From contig JANPFP010000125.1 in assembly GCA_031423495.1 (NCBI GenBank), positions 19,865 to 83,864 of the forward strand: a stretch of 64,000 bases of DNA, in the 5' to 3' direction. Source of the stretch: Acidobacteriota bacterium. Lineage in GTDB: Bacteria > Acidobacteriota > Blastocatellia > RBC074. Each line of letters starts with the position of its first letter. Position 1 is the stretch's first letter. Position numbers and translations under genes: made by a program. Shown here in pieces: positions 12,387 through 19,592 of the stretch. The notes beneath the pieces are model-generated. The model worked only from the letters and a program-made list of their open reading frames with translations, did no database searches and was not told the origin of the DNA.

Positions 12387-12432
12387 TATTTTCTCCCGCA
12401 CAACGGACATTGGAAGAAAGAGAGGCTACGTT

Positions 12433-13650
12433 ATGAGAGTCACTGAAATCACAGTTAAAGGCTTGTTCGGACTTTTCGATCACGTCATTCCGCTCAATTT
12501 AGAAGACCGCATCACCATCATTCACGGGCCGAATGGTGTAGGGAAAACTGTATTATTAAAGATGCTAGATGCGACTCTAAATGGAAAGTACGAATATCTG
12601 TGGGATATTAGCTTTAGTGAGTTCCGGGTGCGTTTTGACGACTCTTTGTCACTCCTTGTCCGTGGTAATGAGGAAAAGTTAGGGCTATTTTTGGTTGATG
12701 TGGAGAAGATTATCGAACGACACGTCTTACCGATTAAACGGGTTAAACCAGAGCGTCAACCTTGGATGAATGCACTGGAACGCCGCCGACTAACCAGAGA
12801 ATTAGATTATCCAGAATGGCTTCGTGAGCGCCAAAATGCCGCCCCAGTAAATTTGATTGAAACACAACGACTTATTTTACTGAACACTTTTGAGTACGCG
12901 GATGAACGGCGACAGACTGGCAGATATGTTGAGAAAAAAGATCACTACCTAATGATCACCGAATGTGCTCAAAAGTTATCTGAAAAAGTGAAAGCCATAT
13001 TAGCTGAGTCAGCCGAAAAATCTCAAAGTTTGGATCGAACTTTTCCTGCTCGGCTTTTGCAGCATAATTCAATATCAGTTTTGTCTGGTACTGTAATTAA
13101 AGACGAATTGAAACGCCTTGAGCTTGAACGAGAACGTTTAGTTAGTATTGGACTTCTTGATGCCGCAGAATTGGAGGTTTCCAGCGAGTTGCCGATTGAG
13201 CCGCAGAATGAAAGAGTTCTTTCCATCTACATTCAGGATGCCAAAGAGAAACTAGGCGTCTTCAAAGATATTGCTGAACGCCTTAGCCTGTTGCAACAAA
13301 TTATTAACAAGCGATTTCTATTTAAGAAGCTGAGTATTAACAAAGAGCAAGGATTTATTTTTACCTCTGACATCACGACTACTCGCATTCCCCTTGATGG
13401 CCTGTCTTCTGGGGAACAGCATGAGTTGGTGCTTCTTTACGAATTACTTTTCAATACCAAACCTAATTCACTGATTCTTATTGATGAGCCGGAAATTTCG
13501 TTACACGTCGCTTGGCAAATGGGTTTTCTGCGTGACTTGCAGGAAATCTGCCAGCTTGCCTCATTGGATGTGATTATCGCCACGCATTCACCTGAAATCG
13601 TCAGTGACCGTTGGGATTTGACGGTAGAATTAAAAGGCCCGACGAAATAA
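12433..13650 (+). CDS. ABC-type (SMC/RecF/OLD-like) ATPase, AriA-like component of a PARIS-type defense pair
   Basis: Probable start MRVTEITVKGLFG. Walker A GPNGVGKT. Coiled-coil insertion. ABC signature LSSGEQ. Walker B LILIDEPEISLH. H-loop ATHSPE. The gene is markedly AT-richer than the window. It ends 5 bp before the DUF4435-like gene. Confidence 0.65.
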   Translation: MRVTEITVKGLFGLFDHVIPLNLEDRITIIHGPNGVGKTVLLKMLDATLNGKYEYLWDISFSEFRVRFDDSLSLLVRGNEEKLGLFLVDVEKIIERHVLPIKRVKPERQPWMNALERRRLTRELDYPEWLRERQNAAPVNLIETQRLILLNTFEYADERRQTGRYVEKKDHYLMITECAQKLSEKVKAILAESAEKSQSLDRTFPARLLQHNSISVLSGTVIKDELKRLELERERLVSIGLLDAAELEVSSELPIEPQNERVLSIYIQDAKEKLGVFKDIAERLSLLQQIINKRFLFKKLSINKEQGFIFTSDITTTRIPLDGLSSGEQHELVLLYELLFNTKPNSLILIDEPEISLHVAWQMGFLRDLQEICQLASLDVIIATHSPEIVSDRWDLTVELKGPTK

Positions 13651-13655
13651 CCGTT

Positions 13656-14522
13656 ATGAGAGAGCTTCTCAGCCCAGCAACGATTGCCAATCGCATTCGC
13701 ATGAAACGATCACAGTTTCACGGCGCTTTCCTGATCGTCGAAGGCGACACTGATTCACGTTTGCTCCGCAACTTTGTCGTGACGGGAGATTGTCAGTTAG
13801 TAGGCGCTTATGGGAAGGACAATTTGTTCGGTGCGCTGGCGATCCTGAATGCCGAACAACGCACAGGTGTGCTGGCGATTGCGGACGCTGATTTCAAGCG
13901 GCTCGAAGGTCAATTACCTGCCATGCCCAACCTGCATTTCACCGATACGCACGATCTCGAAACGATGATCTTGCAATCGCCTGCGTTGCAAAAGGTTCTT
14001 TCTGAATTCGGCTCTGAACTTAAACTCAAGACGTTCGCCGAAATGCAGCAAGGCACTTTGCGCAGCGTTTTGTTGGCGAGTGGCAGCCGCGTGGGTTATT
14101 TGCGTTGGGCGTCATTGCAGCAACAGTTCGCCTTGAAATTCGAGGGCGTGAAGTTCAGCAAATTCATCAGCGACGAAACGCTGGCGATTGACGATGCCAA
14201 GCTGGTCAAGGCGGTGAAAGATCACTCTCAAGCCCATTACCTGAACGACGCTGACCTGCTCGCGTCAATGGCGCAGTTGCACGATGCGCAACACGATCAA
14301 TGGCAAGTTTGTTGCGGCCACGATTTGGTCGAAATTCTATCGGCTGGATTGCGCAAGGCCATCGGCACGAACGACGCAAAACAAGTAGAGTCGGAACGCC
14401 TCAATGGAGCATTGAGGCTGGCGTATGAGTTCGCCTATTTCTGCGCGACTTCGCTTTACGCCGCTATCAGGGAATGGGAAGCTGCCAATCCGAGGTATCA
14501 AGTTTTTCCTCGTAACGCATAG
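13656..14522 (+). CDS. DUF4435/TOPRIM-like (OLD-family nuclease-like) protein, AriB-like partner of the upstream ATPase
   Basis: 289 aa. N-terminal FLIVEGDTDSRLL (E...DxD Toprim-like signature typical of DUF4435). Translationally linked to the ATPase. Confidence 0.55.
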   Translation: MRELLSPATIANRIRMKRSQFHGAFLIVEGDTDSRLLRNFVVTGDCQLVGAYGKDNLFGALAILNAEQRTGVLAIADADFKRLEGQLPAMPNLHFTDTHDLETMILQSPALQKVLSEFGSELKLKTFAEMQQGTLRSVLLASGSRVGYLRWASLQQQFALKFEGVKFSKFISDETLAIDDAKLVKAVKDHSQAHYLNDADLLASMAQLHDAQHDQWQVCCGHDLVEILSAGLRKAIGTNDAKQVESERLNGALRLAYEFAYFCATSLYAAIREWEAANPRYQVFPRNA

Positions 14523-14642: not shown

Positions 14643-15593
14643 TCAAGAAAGGAAAAGTCCGGGCTGAAGCGCTTCGCGTTTGCGCTTGGCTGAAGGCAAT
14701 TCGTCGGTTGGCATTTCTAGCGACGCTCCTTTGAATTTTGGATAGAGCGCGCTGAGTCGCGCAATGTTTTCGCGTAAAGCTGTGCAATACTCTTTGTCAA
14801 TTTCGACGCCGATGGAGTTGTAGCCGACCGCCTGGCAAGCGGCGATGGTTGAGCCTGATCCGCAAAACGGATCAAGGATAGTTCCTGCTTCCAGCGGCAA
14901 CAGGCTGCGCACGAGAATGCGCATCAGGTGTTGCGGCTTTAGCGTAGGGTGGTTGGAAATAGCTTCTTCGACTGCTGGCGTTTTGCCGCTGGGAATAATG
15001 TCGGGCAACGGTTGATCTTCGTTGAGTCTGCGCAATGCTCCCGTTCCATATTTTCTTAAGTTTTGGGCGACGGTTTTTTCTTCGATAGGCTTGCGAAAAA
15101 GCATCCAAGGTTCATAAGCTCCACGTGGCGTGACGCACACTTCGGGGAACTCATTTTCTGCGAGCTTGGGGCGGTCGCCGCCGCGAAAGCCGCGATAGAC
15201 GCGCATCAAGGCACCGCGCACTTCAAAACCCGCTTCAGCCATGCCGCTTTGCACCAAGTGTTGCAACATCGGCGTGCCTGCGAGCAAAACGTGTCCGCCC
15301 GGTACGAGAATGGGCAGCAAGGCTTCGCCGAATTCTTTGAAGTAAACACGCACGTGTTCACGCTCTTGCGCTGACAACGTAGTGAAACGAGGTAAAGGCG
15401 CGCGCTGGCTGCCGCCGATGTTGGGCGGAATGCGCCACACGCCGCCGCGCCCGTTACGCAACTTAGTCATCTCGTTCGGCAGAAACTCGACAATGCCGAA
15501 AGGCGGATCAGTGCAGACCCCATGCAAGCTGGCAGGCGCTTGCGCACGGAGCCAGGCAAAACAATCAGCGTGATAAAGGGTGTATGGAGTCAT
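14643..15593 (-). CDS. Beta-class DNA N6-adenine/N4-cytosine methyltransferase (type II R-M modification subunit)
   Basis: Start taken at internal Met (MTPYTLYHADCFAWL). Motif IV TDPPFGI near the N-terminus, HPTLKP, motif I FCGSGSTIAA near the C-terminus, giving beta-class order (PF01555-like). Confidence 0.8.
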   Translation of the reverse strand: MTPYTLYHADCFAWLRAQAPASLHGVCTDPPFGIVEFLPNEMTKLRNGRGGVWRIPPNIGGSQRAPLPRFTTLSAQEREHVRVYFKEFGEALLPILVPGGHVLLAGTPMLQHLVQSGMAEAGFEVRGALMRVYRGFRGGDRPKLAENEFPEVCVTPRGAYEPWMLFRKPIEEKTVAQNLRKYGTGALRRLNEDQPLPDIIPSGKTPAVEEAISNHPTLKPQHLMRILVRSLLPLEAGTILDPFCGSGSTIAACQAVGYNSIGVEIDKEYCTALRENIARLSALYPKFKGASLEMPTDELPSAKRKREALQPGLFLS

Positions 15594-15656
15594 TACTGTG
15601 ACTTTCACATATAGTTGAAAGACTGTCAAGAAGGCAGTTGATAGTATCCCGAAACA
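15594..15656. promoter_or_regulatory. Divergent promoter/operator region between methyltransferase and HTH-nuclease genes
   Basis: 63-bp AT-richer spacer between divergently transcribed genes, one of which encodes an XRE HTH. A likely C-box-type autoregulatory site, not directly identified. Confidence 0.3.
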
Positions 15657-16547
15657 ATGAGTGAAGCTCAAAAAATCATCGGCGCTTATGTGCGAGCCTT
15701 GCGCGAGCAGCGCGGCTTGTCGTTGGAAGCCTTAGCTGCTCAAGCCGACATCAGCTATCAATATCTCTCAGGCGTAGAAACCGGCAAACAGAATTTTAGT
15801 GTGCAAGTGCTGGAAGCGTTAGCGCGCGCGTTGGACCTTCCTATCAGGACTTTGATGGTCGGAGCTTACGACTTGGCCGCAGGAGCAGCGCCTCCAAGAT
15901 TGCACAAAGAGTATTTCAGGCCACAAGCGCCATTGCCACCCGGACTGACGCTCGCACATTTAGAAAACGCTGCCAATCAAACGCAAGCCATCATCCATCG
16001 CATCAATCGAAACCTGAGTGTAGAAGCCGGGCAAACTTTGCAATCGCTTATTCAGGGCAATAATTTTTCGGGTTTGGTTTCGAACATTTTTAGCAACTCA
16101 CTGGATGCGTTTTCGCCTTACAAGCACAACCATAGTCAACGTTACCCTGACTTGATTTATCAACCGGGCAAAAAAGGCGCGGCGGTTGGGCTTGAAGTGA
16201 AAGTTACGATCAACGCTGGTAAAGGGGGCGAAAGTCACAATGGTCATAGCGGTTGGCACGTTATTGCTTGCTACCATTTTGTTGAAAACGGTGATATTCA
16301 ATTTATCCACTTTATGTTTGCCCAACTGAATGGACACCAGCATTCAGAGTCTGACTGGAGCTATGTTGGCAGTAAGGTGAACGCAGCCACAGGCAGTCGG
16401 CGAACCGAAACTTATACGACCACATTGGCAGGAACTACGAAATTGCGAGATGGTTCGGTTTATCTGGATACCGGCAAAGTTGATTTTTCCCATTGGCGGC
16501 AAGCGCGCCAAGGAGAGCCTCCCGTTTGGTCGCTCTATGCTAAGTAA
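15657..16547 (+). CDS. XRE-family HTH fused to a putative PD-(D/E)xK nuclease domain (candidate restriction endonuclease with built-in controller)
   Basis: 296 aa. N-terminal HTH_3 (LSLEALAAQADISYQYLSGVETGKQN). The C-terminal domain has YPDLIY...GLEVKVT, matching PD-x(n)-E-x-K. Divergent to the MTase. Lower GC. Confidence 0.45.
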   Translation: MSEAQKIIGAYVRALREQRGLSLEALAAQADISYQYLSGVETGKQNFSVQVLEALARALDLPIRTLMVGAYDLAAGAAPPRLHKEYFRPQAPLPPGLTLAHLENAANQTQAIIHRINRNLSVEAGQTLQSLIQGNNFSGLVSNIFSNSLDAFSPYKHNHSQRYPDLIYQPGKKGAAVGLEVKVTINAGKGGESHNGHSGWHVIACYHFVENGDIQFIHFMFAQLNGHQHSESDWSYVGSKVNAATGSRRTETYTTTLAGTTKLRDGSVYLDTGKVDFSHWRQARQGEPPVWSLYAK

Positions 16548-19160: not shown

Positions 19161-19592
19161 ATGAGAGGTAAGAGTATGAAAGTTTTTATTAGTTACGCTG
19201 ACACCGATCGTGAGGTGGCGCAGCGCGTGACGCAAAGCCTGAAAGCCGATGGCTTGTCGGTCTGGTCTGACGAAGACGAAGTTTTTCCGGGCGATAACTG
19301 GGCGGCGAAGGTAGCGCAGGGCGTGGAAGAAGCCGATGCGATTGTCGCTTTGCTGACGCCCGAATCGCTGCATTCACGTTCTGTGCGCTCAGACATCAAT
19401 TACGCGCTGGGCAAAAAAGCATTGAAGGACAAGCTCATTCCCGTGTGGTTGGGCGGAGAAGATTCCGCTCAACAAGAAAGTTTCCCGTGGATTTTGCGCC
19501 ACTTACCGATGATTCAACTGCTGGATAACGAACAGGATGAAGTCGGATTCAAACGTATTGCGGACGCGCTGCACGCGGCTCCTGCGCATTAA
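19161..19592 (+). CDS. TIR-domain-only protein 1
   Basis: 143 aa. MKVFISYADTDREVAQRV...LSVWSDEDEVFPGDNW...EADAIVALLTPESLHSRSVRSDINYAL is the canonical bacterial TIR/TIR-like (DUF1863) arrangement (FISY..D, conserved acidic W...D, alpha-C with S..W...E). Confidence 0.7.
   Translation: MRGKSMKVFISYADTDREVAQRVTQSLKADGLSVWSDEDEVFPGDNWAAKVAQGVEEADAIVALLTPESLHSRSVRSDINYALGKKALKDKLIPVWLGGEDSAQQESFPWILRHLPMIQLLDNEQDEVGFKRIADALHAAPAH

What the first reader, a model, noticed from the sequence alone, without database searches (positions are those of the whole stretch)
14643..16547. Divergent type II R-M module in which the nuclease candidate is an XRE-HTH::PD-(D/E)xK fusion
The minus-strand gene is a clear beta-class N6A/N4C methyltransferase (DPPF ... 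HPTLKP ... FCGSGST). Across a 63-bp spacer, the plus-strand gene encodes an N-terminal XRE HTH fused to a domain containing YPDLIY...GLEVKVT. That is a textbook PD-x(n)-(D/E)-x-K nuclease signature. Controller C-proteins of R-M systems are normally separate small HTH proteins. Here the controller appears fused to the endonuclease, which would couple autoregulation and cleavage in a single polypeptide. Alternatively this is an orphan MTase next to an HTH regulator with a degenerate nuclease fold.
Basis: partly seen in the sequence, partly recalled or inferred. Interest (0 to 1): 0.6.

Follow-up and report, generated by a model that had tools for sequence, protein, structure and literature searches.

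The report
Restriction enzyme fused to its regulator
This is a two-gene bacterial restriction-modification defence module whose DNA-cutting enzyme carries its own gene-regulating DNA-binding domain; such fusions have been described once before, but this enzyme family is large, uncharacterised and labelled only as "transcriptional regulator" in the databases checked here.

Summary
A 316-aa beta-class N6/N4 DNA methyltransferase (14643-15593, minus) and a 296-aa XRE-HTH protein (15657-16547, plus) face away from each other across 63 bp.

- **Motif:** P164-D165...E180-x-K182 is invariant in 33 close homologues and at least 90% conserved in 47 divergent relatives.
- **Linkage:** all 80 other genomic loci, from many phyla, keep the divergent methyltransferase while the flanks differ.
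- **Relatives:** unfused relatives sit next to orthologous methyltransferases, one in a classic C-R-M layout. Relatives that have lost the motif have no methyltransferase.
- **Operator:** a 16-bp palindrome (window 15604-15619) occurs at a fixed position in 79 of 80 loci. The one locus without it has a different HTH recognition helix.

My conclusion is a type II R-M system with a controller-endonuclease fusion. The kind is known (CR.NsoJS138I, PvuII family, 2013). This is a new, unannotated enzyme family of that kind. The recognition site, cleavage and the regulatory logic remain untested.

The parts
14643..15593 (-). DNA methyltransferase gene (316 aa), beta-class N6-adenine/N4-cytosine family. 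The DPPF motif hints at N6-adenine; this is an inference.
   Evidence: Pfam N6_N4_Mtase E 9e-19. PADLOC MTase_II PDLC03215 E 7e-80. Motif order IV before I. A homologue of 59-78% identity lies divergent from the fusion gene in all 80 loci from other genomes.
15594..15656 (.). 63-bp divergent control region shared by both genes. Neither gene has a Shine-Dalgarno sequence, so the transcripts are probably leaderless or have a very short leader.
   Evidence: Sequence. Alignment of 80 spacers.
15604..15619 (.). Operator candidate TTCACATATAGTTGAA, a 16-bp near-palindrome (family consensus TTC-NN-CTATAG-NN-GAA).
   Evidence: Present at 9 or more of 12 specified bases in 79 of 80 loci. The distance to the fusion-gene ATG is 35-37 nt in 69 loci. 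The only locus without it (L041) has a different HTH recognition helix. In this window alone the match is not significant.
15624..15629 (-). Candidate -35 hexamer TTGACA of the methyltransferase promoter (inferred). Its 17-nt spacer contains the operator.
   Evidence: TTGACA at this fixed offset in 28 of 79 loci, and TTG in 67 of 79. The consensus promoter scan found nothing, so this is inference only.
15601..15606 (-). Candidate weak -10 (GAAAGT) of the methyltransferase promoter, 7 nt from the ATG (inferred).
   Evidence: GAAACT, GAACCT or GAAAAT occupy the same offset in other loci. Part of the hexamer belongs to the palindrome, so its conservation is ambiguous.
15639..15647 (+). Candidate extended -10 (TGaTAGTAT) of the fusion-gene promoter, 9 nt from the ATG (inferred). 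It places the operator centre near -42.5.
   Evidence: A hexamer beginning with TA lies 38 nt (5 loci: 36; 3 loci: 39) after the operator start in 78 of 79 loci.
15657..15872 (+). N-terminal XRE/Cro-C1 HTH domain (aa 1-72) of the fusion protein. It is controller-protein-like and its recognition helix is SYQYLSGVETGK.
   Evidence: Pfam HTH_3 E 2e-14. PADLOC Control_protein E 5e-11. The best PDB sequence matches of the family profile are C.BclI (1e-11) and C.AhdI (2e-9). The helix residues are invariant in the 33 close homologues of alignment A1.
15873..15908 (+). Variable linker (aa 73-84).
   Evidence: Low conservation and low pLDDT in the full-length model.
15909..16547 (+). PD-(D/E)xK restriction endonuclease domain (aa 85-296, plus the stop codon). 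Codons of the putative catalytic residues: D165 at 16149-16151, E180 at 16194-16196, K182 at 16200-16202.

Best explanation
This is a mobile two-gene type II restriction-modification system.

**Components (shown or well supported).** The minus-strand gene makes a beta-class amino-methyltransferase that protects host DNA. The plus-strand gene makes one polypeptide with two parts. An N-terminal controller-type XRE HTH domain is joined by a linker of about 12 aa to a PD-(D/E)xK endonuclease domain of the EcoRV/NaeI/SfiI structural branch. The putative active site is D165, E180 and K182.

**Regulation (inferred).** The HTH domain, as a dimer, binds the 16-bp palindrome at 15604-15619. That site lies inside the spacer of a methyltransferase promoter with a consensus -35 hexamer. 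It is also centred about 42 bp upstream of the predicted start of the fusion gene's own weak promoter, which overlaps the first and points the other way.

1. On entering a new cell, the methyltransferase promoter fires first.
2. As the fusion protein accumulates, it occupies the operator.
3. Occupancy shuts down the methyltransferase promoter and favours its own, by direct activation or by removing promoter competition.
4. Restriction activity therefore appears only after the genome has been methylated.

In about half of the related loci, though not in this window, a second operator copy overlaps the fusion gene's -10 element and start codon. That copy would add auto-repression at high protein concentration.
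For: **The nuclease**
- Confident nuclease-domain model whose best structural matches are type II restriction endonucleases.
- PD...ExK is invariant or nearly so across the family.

**Linkage to the methyltransferase**
- A methyltransferase homologue lies divergent from the fusion gene in all 80 loci from other genomes, across Proteobacteria, Cyanobacteria, Acidobacteria, Deinococcales, Verrucomicrobia and Planctomycetes; in 79 of them it is immediately adjacent, and in L043 an IS insertion separates the two genes. Two further loci, L001 and L002, are metagenome copies of this same locus.
- None of the window's flanking genes is shared with those loci.
- Unfused relatives of 200-230 aa sit next to methyltransferases. 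The three full-length ones match the same PADLOC family (PDLC03215), and the one compared directly is 53% identical to the window's. One locus has a separate 79-aa HTH gene overlapping the nuclease gene, the classic C-R-M layout.
- Fused relatives that have lost PD and K have no methyltransferase and sit among housekeeping genes.

**The regulatory domain and its site**
- The HTH resembles R-M controller proteins most closely.
- The operator palindrome lies at a fixed position in 79 of 80 loci. A second copy occurs in 41 loci.
- A -10-like hexamer lies at an almost fixed offset in 78 of 79 loci.
- L041 lacks the operator and has a diverged recognition helix.

**Precedents**
- An active C-REase fusion (PMC3850674).
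- A C protein that acts only by repressing a methyltransferase promoter overlapping the divergent C/R promoter (PMC12707154).
Against: - There is no biochemical evidence for cleavage, methylation, the recognition sequence or operator binding.
- Promoter elements are assigned by eye. The consensus scan found no sigma-70-type promoter, and the proposed methyltransferase -10 is weak and partly overlaps the palindrome.
- The window's clade has only one operator copy, so a negative-feedback step is not evident here.
- The window's operator is an imperfect palindrome (12 of 16 positions self-complementary) and is not significant in the window alone.
- The full-length model is poor (pLDDT 62), so the geometry of two simultaneous dimer interfaces is unknown.
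- I could not inspect residue-level superposition of D165/E180/K182 on NaeI's catalytic residues.
- N6-adenine versus N4-cytosine specificity is unresolved.
Confidence: 0.82

Rival explanations
1. The methyltransferase is an orphan (epigenetic) enzyme controlled by an HTH regulator whose C-terminal domain is a catalytically dead nuclease fold used only for dimerisation or sensing.
For: Every database record seen calls the protein a transcriptional regulator. Nuclease-dead fused relatives really exist (P0153, P0173, P0202, P0220). The helix residue that is E in distant relatives (xxSE) is N143 in this clade.
Against: In this clade P164, D165, E180 and K182 are invariant. The dead relatives are exactly the ones that have lost the methyltransferase. 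Every relative with an intact motif that I examined keeps one. That pattern is expected if intact forms are toxic without methylation.
Confidence: 0.06
2. The HTH is not a transcription controller. It is an extra DNA-recognition or effector domain of the nuclease, like the second DNA-binding domain of the type IIE enzyme NaeI. It would help target recognition or allosteric activation on substrate DNA.
For: The best structural match is NaeI, a two-domain type IIE enzyme. The HTH is retained in nearly all members of this clade. The two roles are not mutually exclusive.
Against: The HTH's closest relatives are R-M controller proteins. A conserved palindrome sits at a fixed place in the module's own promoter region in 79 of 80 loci and co-varies with the recognition helix. 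Unfused family members work with a separate small HTH gene or with none. Outside the operators CTATAG is no more depleted than other palindromes.
Confidence: 0.1
3. The nuclease is a modification-dependent (type IV-like) enzyme or another kind of toxin, and its linkage to the methyltransferase is not a protect-and-cut relationship.
Against: A modification-dependent nuclease strictly co-inherited with an active methyltransferase would be self-destructive. Methyltransferase linkage persists across three gene arrangements (divergent, convergent, C-R-M) and is lost when the motif degenerates. That fits a cognate pair.
Confidence: 0.02

Closest known systems
CR.NsoJS138I and related C-REase fusions of the PvuII family (Liang & Blumenthal 2013, PMC3850674)
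   Same: A single polypeptide with an N-terminal controller-type HTH and a C-terminal type IIP PD-(D/E)xK endonuclease, paired with a separate beta-class amino-methyltransferase. The fusion was shown to be active in both roles.
   Different: The nuclease domain here has no detectable sequence similarity to R.PvuII. Its best fold matches are NaeI and SfiI. The operator is a single 16-bp palindrome, or two copies 32-39 bp apart in other clades, rather than adjacent double C-boxes. This family is far larger: 1228 proteins at E<=1e-3, a count that may include proteins matching only the HTH, and 182 stretches matched in the scan of species-representative genomes.
Classical C-protein-controlled type II R-M systems (PvuII, AhdI, Esp1396I, BclI, Kpn2I, EcoRV types)
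   Same: An XRE HTH most similar to C.BclI, C.AhdI and C.Esp1396I, an operator upstream of its own gene, probably leaderless transcripts, and an unfused sister system with a C-R-M layout (L087). One operator that represses the methyltransferase promoter while favouring an overlapping divergent C/R promoter has a described precedent (PMC12707154).
   Different: The controller is covalently joined to the nuclease, so regulator and enzyme are made in a fixed 1:1 ratio. Both domains probably need to dimerise.
NaeI / SfiI / SwaI / EcoRV structural branch of PD-(D/E)xK restriction endonucleases
   Different: No sequence-level relationship: no Pfam, NCBIfam or PDB sequence hit for aa 85-296. The recognition site and cleavage geometry are unknown.
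HTH-methyltransferase fusions (SsoII, Ecl18kI, EcoRII and MspI types)
   Same: A regulatory HTH fused to an R-M enzyme that binds an operator between divergent, overlapping R and M promoters (PMC12707154).
   Different: There the HTH is on the methyltransferase. Here it is on the endonuclease, so the sensor reports nuclease level rather than methyltransferase level.

Membership tests
Type II restriction-modification system | A DNA methyltransferase with SAM-binding and catalytic motifs | tested here: met
   Pfam N6_N4_Mtase E 9e-19. PADLOC MTase_II E 7e-80. DPPF and FCGSGST are present in beta-class order.
Type II restriction-modification system | An adjacent, separately encoded endonuclease with a nuclease fold and conserved catalytic residues | tested here: met
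   pLDDT 94.7 model. The best fold matches are type II restriction endonucleases. PD...ExK is conserved.
Type II restriction-modification system | Co-inheritance of the two genes as a unit across genomes | tested here: met
   82 of 82 loci, of which two are copies of this locus, with no shared flanks. Linkage also holds for unfused relatives and is lost in motif-degenerate relatives.
Type II restriction-modification system | The nuclease cleaves at or near the same specific sequence that the methyltransferase modifies, and methylation blocks cleavage | not testable with these tools
   This needs methylome data and an in vitro cleavage assay. Palindrome-avoidance statistics were not diagnostic.
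R-M controller (C) proteins | An XRE-type HTH with sequence similarity to known C proteins | tested here: met
   PADLOC Control_protein models down to E 5e-11. The family profile's best PDB matches are C.BclI (1.3e-11), C.AhdI (2e-9) and the 3clc controller-protein entry (3e-7).
R-M controller (C) proteins | Encoded upstream of, and co-expressed with, the endonuclease | tested here: met
   Here the link is a translational fusion in one ORF with no conserved internal start.
R-M controller (C) proteins | A conserved symmetric operator (C-box) upstream of its own gene | tested here: met
   A 16-bp palindrome at a fixed offset in 79 of 80 loci, co-varying with the recognition helix. The window has a single palindrome, not the PvuII-type double box. 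Single-palindrome C-box classes are described in PMC2632904.
R-M controller (C) proteins | Autogenous activation and/or repression of transcription | not testable with these tools
   This needs reporter fusions, EMSA and transcription-start mapping. The promoter assignment is inferred.
PvuII-family C-REase fusions (CR.NsoJS138I) | Nuclease domain orthologous to R.PvuII | tested here: not met
PvuII-family C-REase fusions (CR.NsoJS138I) | An N-terminal C-type HTH fused in frame to a type IIP endonuclease | tested here: met
   The architecture is the same but the nuclease family is different.
NaeI restriction endonuclease family | Sequence membership (Pfam or PDB sequence match to NaeI) | tested here: not met

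The most novel reading that the evidence does not exclude
The fusion may be more than a convenience. It could be a distinct regulatory design. Both the HTH and the nuclease need to dimerise and the linker is short, so operator-bound and cleavage-competent states may compete. That would tie nuclease activity to occupancy of the module's own promoter and set a sharp delay and threshold during establishment in a new host. The same lineage has also given rise to nuclease-dead, methyltransferase-free descendants that may now serve as ordinary chromosomal regulators. That would make it a traceable case of a restriction enzyme turned into a transcription factor.
Probability: 0.25. Interest if true: 0.6.

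Novelty: new member of a known kind. Interest (0 to 1): 0.4.

Why it matters
- **Annotation.** 1228 database proteins match at E<=1e-3, and 182 stretches were found in species-representative genomes across many phyla. Every source name listed for them calls them an HTH or XRE transcriptional regulator. They are most likely restriction endonucleases with no Pfam family and no solved structure. Recognising them would correct R-M and defence-island annotation and add a new enzyme family with an unknown specificity.
- **An open question.** Liang & Blumenthal (2013) asked how a protein that must dimerise through two different domains times restriction against methylation. This family offers a second, independent and much more abundant system in which to test that.
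- **Material for experiments.** The conserved operator, the one-site and two-site variants, the unfused sister systems and the nuclease-dead descendants form a ready-made comparative series.

Tried and rejected
1. **Sequence searches of the C-terminal domain.** Pfam, NCBIfam and PDB sequences gave nothing. PADLOC gave only a weak REase_II hit (PDLC03564, E 5e-4). A distant fused relative hits the same model at 2e-10.
2. **Full-length AlphaFold2 model from 33 close homologues.** It was poor for the nuclease part (pLDDT 62) and I discarded it. The model built from a diverse 47-sequence alignment succeeded.
3. **Foldseek against afdb50.** The library was unavailable.
4. **Guessing the recognition site from palindrome avoidance.**
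   - Across 884 kb of the window plus related loci, many 6-mers are depleted to O/E 0.27-0.5 and none stands out.
   - CTATAG, the operator core, looked enriched only because of the operators themselves. With operators masked it is 18 observed against 45 expected, within the general range. This test was inconclusive.
5. **Automatic promoter scan of 15400-15800.** It found no sigma-70 consensus promoter. The promoter elements in this report are therefore manual inferences from cross-locus conservation.
6. **Inverted-repeat finder on the spacer.** It reported nothing because the window's palindrome is imperfect. The site emerged only from the 80-locus comparison.
7. **Plasmid and phage collections.** There is no close homologue. 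One distant analogue lies on a Psychrobacter plasmid.
8. **Methyltransferase against PDB sequences.** Only the SAM-binding region aligns, so N6 versus N4 is undecided.
9. **P0178.** This 1930-aa tandem-repeat protein from the representative search is a spurious match.
Full report
**1. Observation**

The minus-strand ORF is listed from a TTG at 15671. Homologues align from the ATG at 15593: in 77 of the 82 loci the alignment begins at residues 1-4. That gives a 316-aa protein and a 63-bp spacer (15594-15656). It carries DPPF at aa 29, HPTLKP at aa 215 and FCGSGST at aa 243. Catalytic motif IV therefore comes before SAM motif I, which is the beta-class order. It matches Pfam N6_N4_Mtase (E 9e-19) and one specific PADLOC type II methyltransferase model (PDLC03215, E 7e-80).

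The plus-strand ORF (15657-16547, 296 aa) has an XRE HTH at aa 12-64 (HTH_3, E 2e-14). It also has P164-D165-x14-E180-V-K182. Residues 85-296 match nothing in Pfam, NCBIfam or the PDB by sequence.

**2. The C-terminal domain is a restriction-endonuclease fold**

A full-length AlphaFold2 run using only close homologues failed for this domain (pLDDT 62).

A search of 1.8 billion representative proteins with the domain alone found 100 clusters at E<=1e-3. They include HTH-fused forms of about 300 aa and stand-alone forms of 200-230 aa. With a 47-sequence alignment of these (A2), the domain modelled at pLDDT 94.7 and pTM 0.90.

- **Foldseek:** the same enzymes, with weak E-values.
- **Active-site placement:** D165 directly precedes one beta-strand, and E180/K182 lie in the next. 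That is the canonical position.
- **Conservation:** P164, D165, E180 and K182 are invariant in 33 homologues of 65-89% identity. They are at least 90% conserved in A2, which reaches about 25% identity.

Neither is met.

**3. Comparative genomics shows a cognate R-M pair**

- The genome-collection scan matched 182 stretches that encode a relative, and 80 loci were kept. They come from Gamma- and Betaproteobacteria, Cyanobacteria, Acidobacteria, Deinococcales, Verrucomicrobia, Planctomycetes and others.
- In all 82 loci, counting two metagenome copies of this same locus, a methyltransferase homologue of 59-78% identity lies divergently upstream. The gap is usually 54-86 bp.
- None of the window's other neighbours occurs in any of those loci. 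The two genes are therefore the mobile unit.
- More distant stand-alone nucleases are also methyltransferase-linked. P0195 and P0143 have convergent methyltransferases, and P0131 has a divergent one.
- P0188 sits in a classic layout: a 79-aa HTH gene overlaps the nuclease gene and a methyltransferase lies convergent to them. That methyltransferase is 53% identical to the window's. The three full-length partner methyltransferases match the same PADLOC family.
- A second fused clade (P0205) has an HTH that matches controller models at E 5e-23 and a convergent methyltransferase.
- Fused relatives that have lost PD and K (P0153, P0173) have no methyltransferase. They sit between housekeeping genes: HEM4 and GlgB in one case, and PriA, a thioesterase and a GGDEF protein in the other.

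An intact motif goes with a methyltransferase, and a degenerate motif goes without one. This is what an active, potentially lethal nuclease would produce.

**4. The HTH is controller-like and has a conserved operator**

The HTH matches PADLOC Control_protein models (E 5e-11). The family profile's best PDB hits are C.BclI (1.3e-11) and C.AhdI (2e-9).

Aligning the 80 spacers revealed a block, TTTC(G/A)(C/A)CTATAG(T/G)(T/C)GAAAGAC. It contains the 16-bp palindrome TTC-NN-CTATAG-NN-GAA.

- The palindrome is present in 79 of 80 loci. It lies 35-37 nt from the fusion gene's ATG in 69 loci and mostly 9-12 nt from the methyltransferase ATG.
- In the window it is TTCACATATAGTTGAA (15604-15619). That is one mismatch to the consensus, and 12 of 16 positions are self-complementary. 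It is not significant within the window alone.
- The recognition helix SYQYLSGVETGK is invariant in the 33 close homologues of alignment A1.
- The one locus without the palindrome (L041) has a different helix, SVGELAAIEAGE. This co-variation supports HTH-operator recognition.
- 41 loci carry a second copy. In Verrucomicrobia it lies 39 nt downstream and abuts the ATG. In cyanobacteria it lies 32 nt downstream.

**5. Proposed mechanism (inferred)**

On the minus strand, TTGACA (15629-15624), a 17-nt spacer and GAAAGT (15606-15601) precede the methyltransferase ATG by 7 nt. The operator fills that spacer. TTG is at this offset in 67 of 79 loci and the full TTGACA in 28.

On the plus strand, a -10-like hexamer beginning with TA lies about 38 nt after the operator start in 78 of 79 loci. 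In the window it is TGaTAGTAT (15639-15647), 9 nt from the ATG. That puts the operator centre near -42.5, a position typical of activators that contact RNA polymerase.

Neither gene has a Shine-Dalgarno sequence, so both mRNAs are probably leaderless, as is common for C genes. The two promoters overlap back to back.

The model is therefore:

1. The methyltransferase is expressed first from its better promoter.
2. The accumulating fusion protein binds the operator.
3. Binding blocks the methyltransferase promoter and favours the fusion gene's own.

A described precedent exists: a C protein that binds only at the methyltransferase promoter and thereby frees an overlapping divergent C/R promoter (PMC12707154). 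Where a second site overlaps the -10 and start codon, it would give auto-repression.

The automatic promoter scan found nothing. All of this section needs experimental confirmation.

**6. Comparison with what is known**

C-REase fusions have been described. CR.NsoJS138I, from the PvuII family, cleaves like PvuII and activates its own promoter (PMC3850674). The 2025 EcoSal review also mentions the phenomenon.

This locus is the same kind of system, but it is not a member of that family.

- The nuclease domain has no PvuII similarity, and its nearest folds are NaeI and SfiI.
- The operator architecture differs.
- The family is much larger: 1228 database proteins match at E<=1e-3 (some perhaps through the HTH alone), and every source name listed calls them an HTH regulator.

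It is therefore a new, unannotated restriction-enzyme family within a known kind. It is not a new principle.

A Psychrobacter plasmid (pA15BP4) carries an analogous HTH::PD...ExK protein. It is 27% identical over aa 12-189 and lies divergent from a C5-cytosine methyltransferase. The architecture therefore recurs with different methyltransferase classes.

**7. What remains unknown**

- The recognition sequence. Palindrome-avoidance analysis was uninformative.
- N6-adenine versus N4-cytosine specificity. DPPF hints at N6A from general knowledge of motif IV, but one search is not decisive.
- Cleavage geometry.
- The real transcription start sites.
- Whether the HTH and nuclease dimer interfaces can form at the same time across the roughly 12-aa linker.

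**8. Verdict**

Novelty is moderate. My confidence that this is an R-M system with a controller-endonuclease fusion is about 0.8. My confidence in the specific promoter-switch mechanism is about 0.5.

Noticed in passing
window 12430-14522 (+): The two genes directly upstream of the R-M module form a PARIS anti-phage system. One is an AriA-type ABC ATPase (PADLOC AriA E 4e-26; Pfam AAA_15/AAA_21). The other is an AriB DUF4435/Toprim protein (PADLOC AriB E 2e-19). The region therefore looks like a small defence island. The pair is not linked to the R-M module in any other genome.
   Followed up: partly
window 19161-19592 (+): A 143-aa stand-alone TIR-domain protein (Pfam TIR_2 E 2e-25, with weak ThsB_TIR and CAP12 TIR hits) lies about 2.6 kb downstream of the R-M module. 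It may be another defence component.
   Followed up: no
whole window (64 kb): The window shows extreme avoidance of 6-bp palindromes. CCGCGG occurs 0 times against 32.8 expected, GGCGCC 0 against 32.7, GTCGAC 0 against 15.1, TGGCCA 0 against 12.6, and CTCGAG 1 against 17.5. This suggests a host under heavy pressure from multiple R-M systems. It also prevented me from inferring this system's recognition site.
   Followed up: partly
L043 4104-6000 (Halieaceae MAG chromosome OZ242189.1): An insertion sequence encoding a 465-aa DDE transposase (Pfam DDE_Tnp_1) has landed in the HTH-coding part of the fusion gene. Only residues 54-296 of the fusion protein remain, cut off from the promoter, while the methyltransferase is intact. 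This is a natural knock-out of the nuclease.
   Followed up: partly
L088 1927-2832; L091 4001-4909 (proteins P0153, P0173; also P0202, P0220): These fused relatives of about 300 aa keep the HTH and the nuclease fold but have lost the PD and K residues. P0153 and P0173 have no adjacent methyltransferase and sit among housekeeping genes. They may be restriction enzymes domesticated into regulators.
   Followed up: partly
L094 1731-3864 (Psychrobacter sp. plasmid pA15BP4, NZ_MN657034.1): A small mobilisable plasmid carries a distantly related HTH::PD...ExK protein of 299 aa, annotated as an HTH regulator. It lies divergent from a C5-cytosine methyltransferase. The same fused architecture is thus paired with a different methyltransferase class.
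   Followed up: partly
L041 5900-6879 (Comamonas sp. MAG): This is the only one of the 80 loci without the conserved palindrome. Its HTH recognition helix has also diverged (SVGELAAIEAGE instead of SYQYLSGVETGK), which suggests a switched operator specificity.
   Followed up: partly
window 15613-15621 and 15636-15644: The operator's right half-site AGTTGAAAG recurs as AGTTGATAG 23 bp downstream, overlapping the proposed -10 of the fusion gene. It could be a remnant of, or a weak, second half-operator in a clade that otherwise has one site.
   Followed up: no
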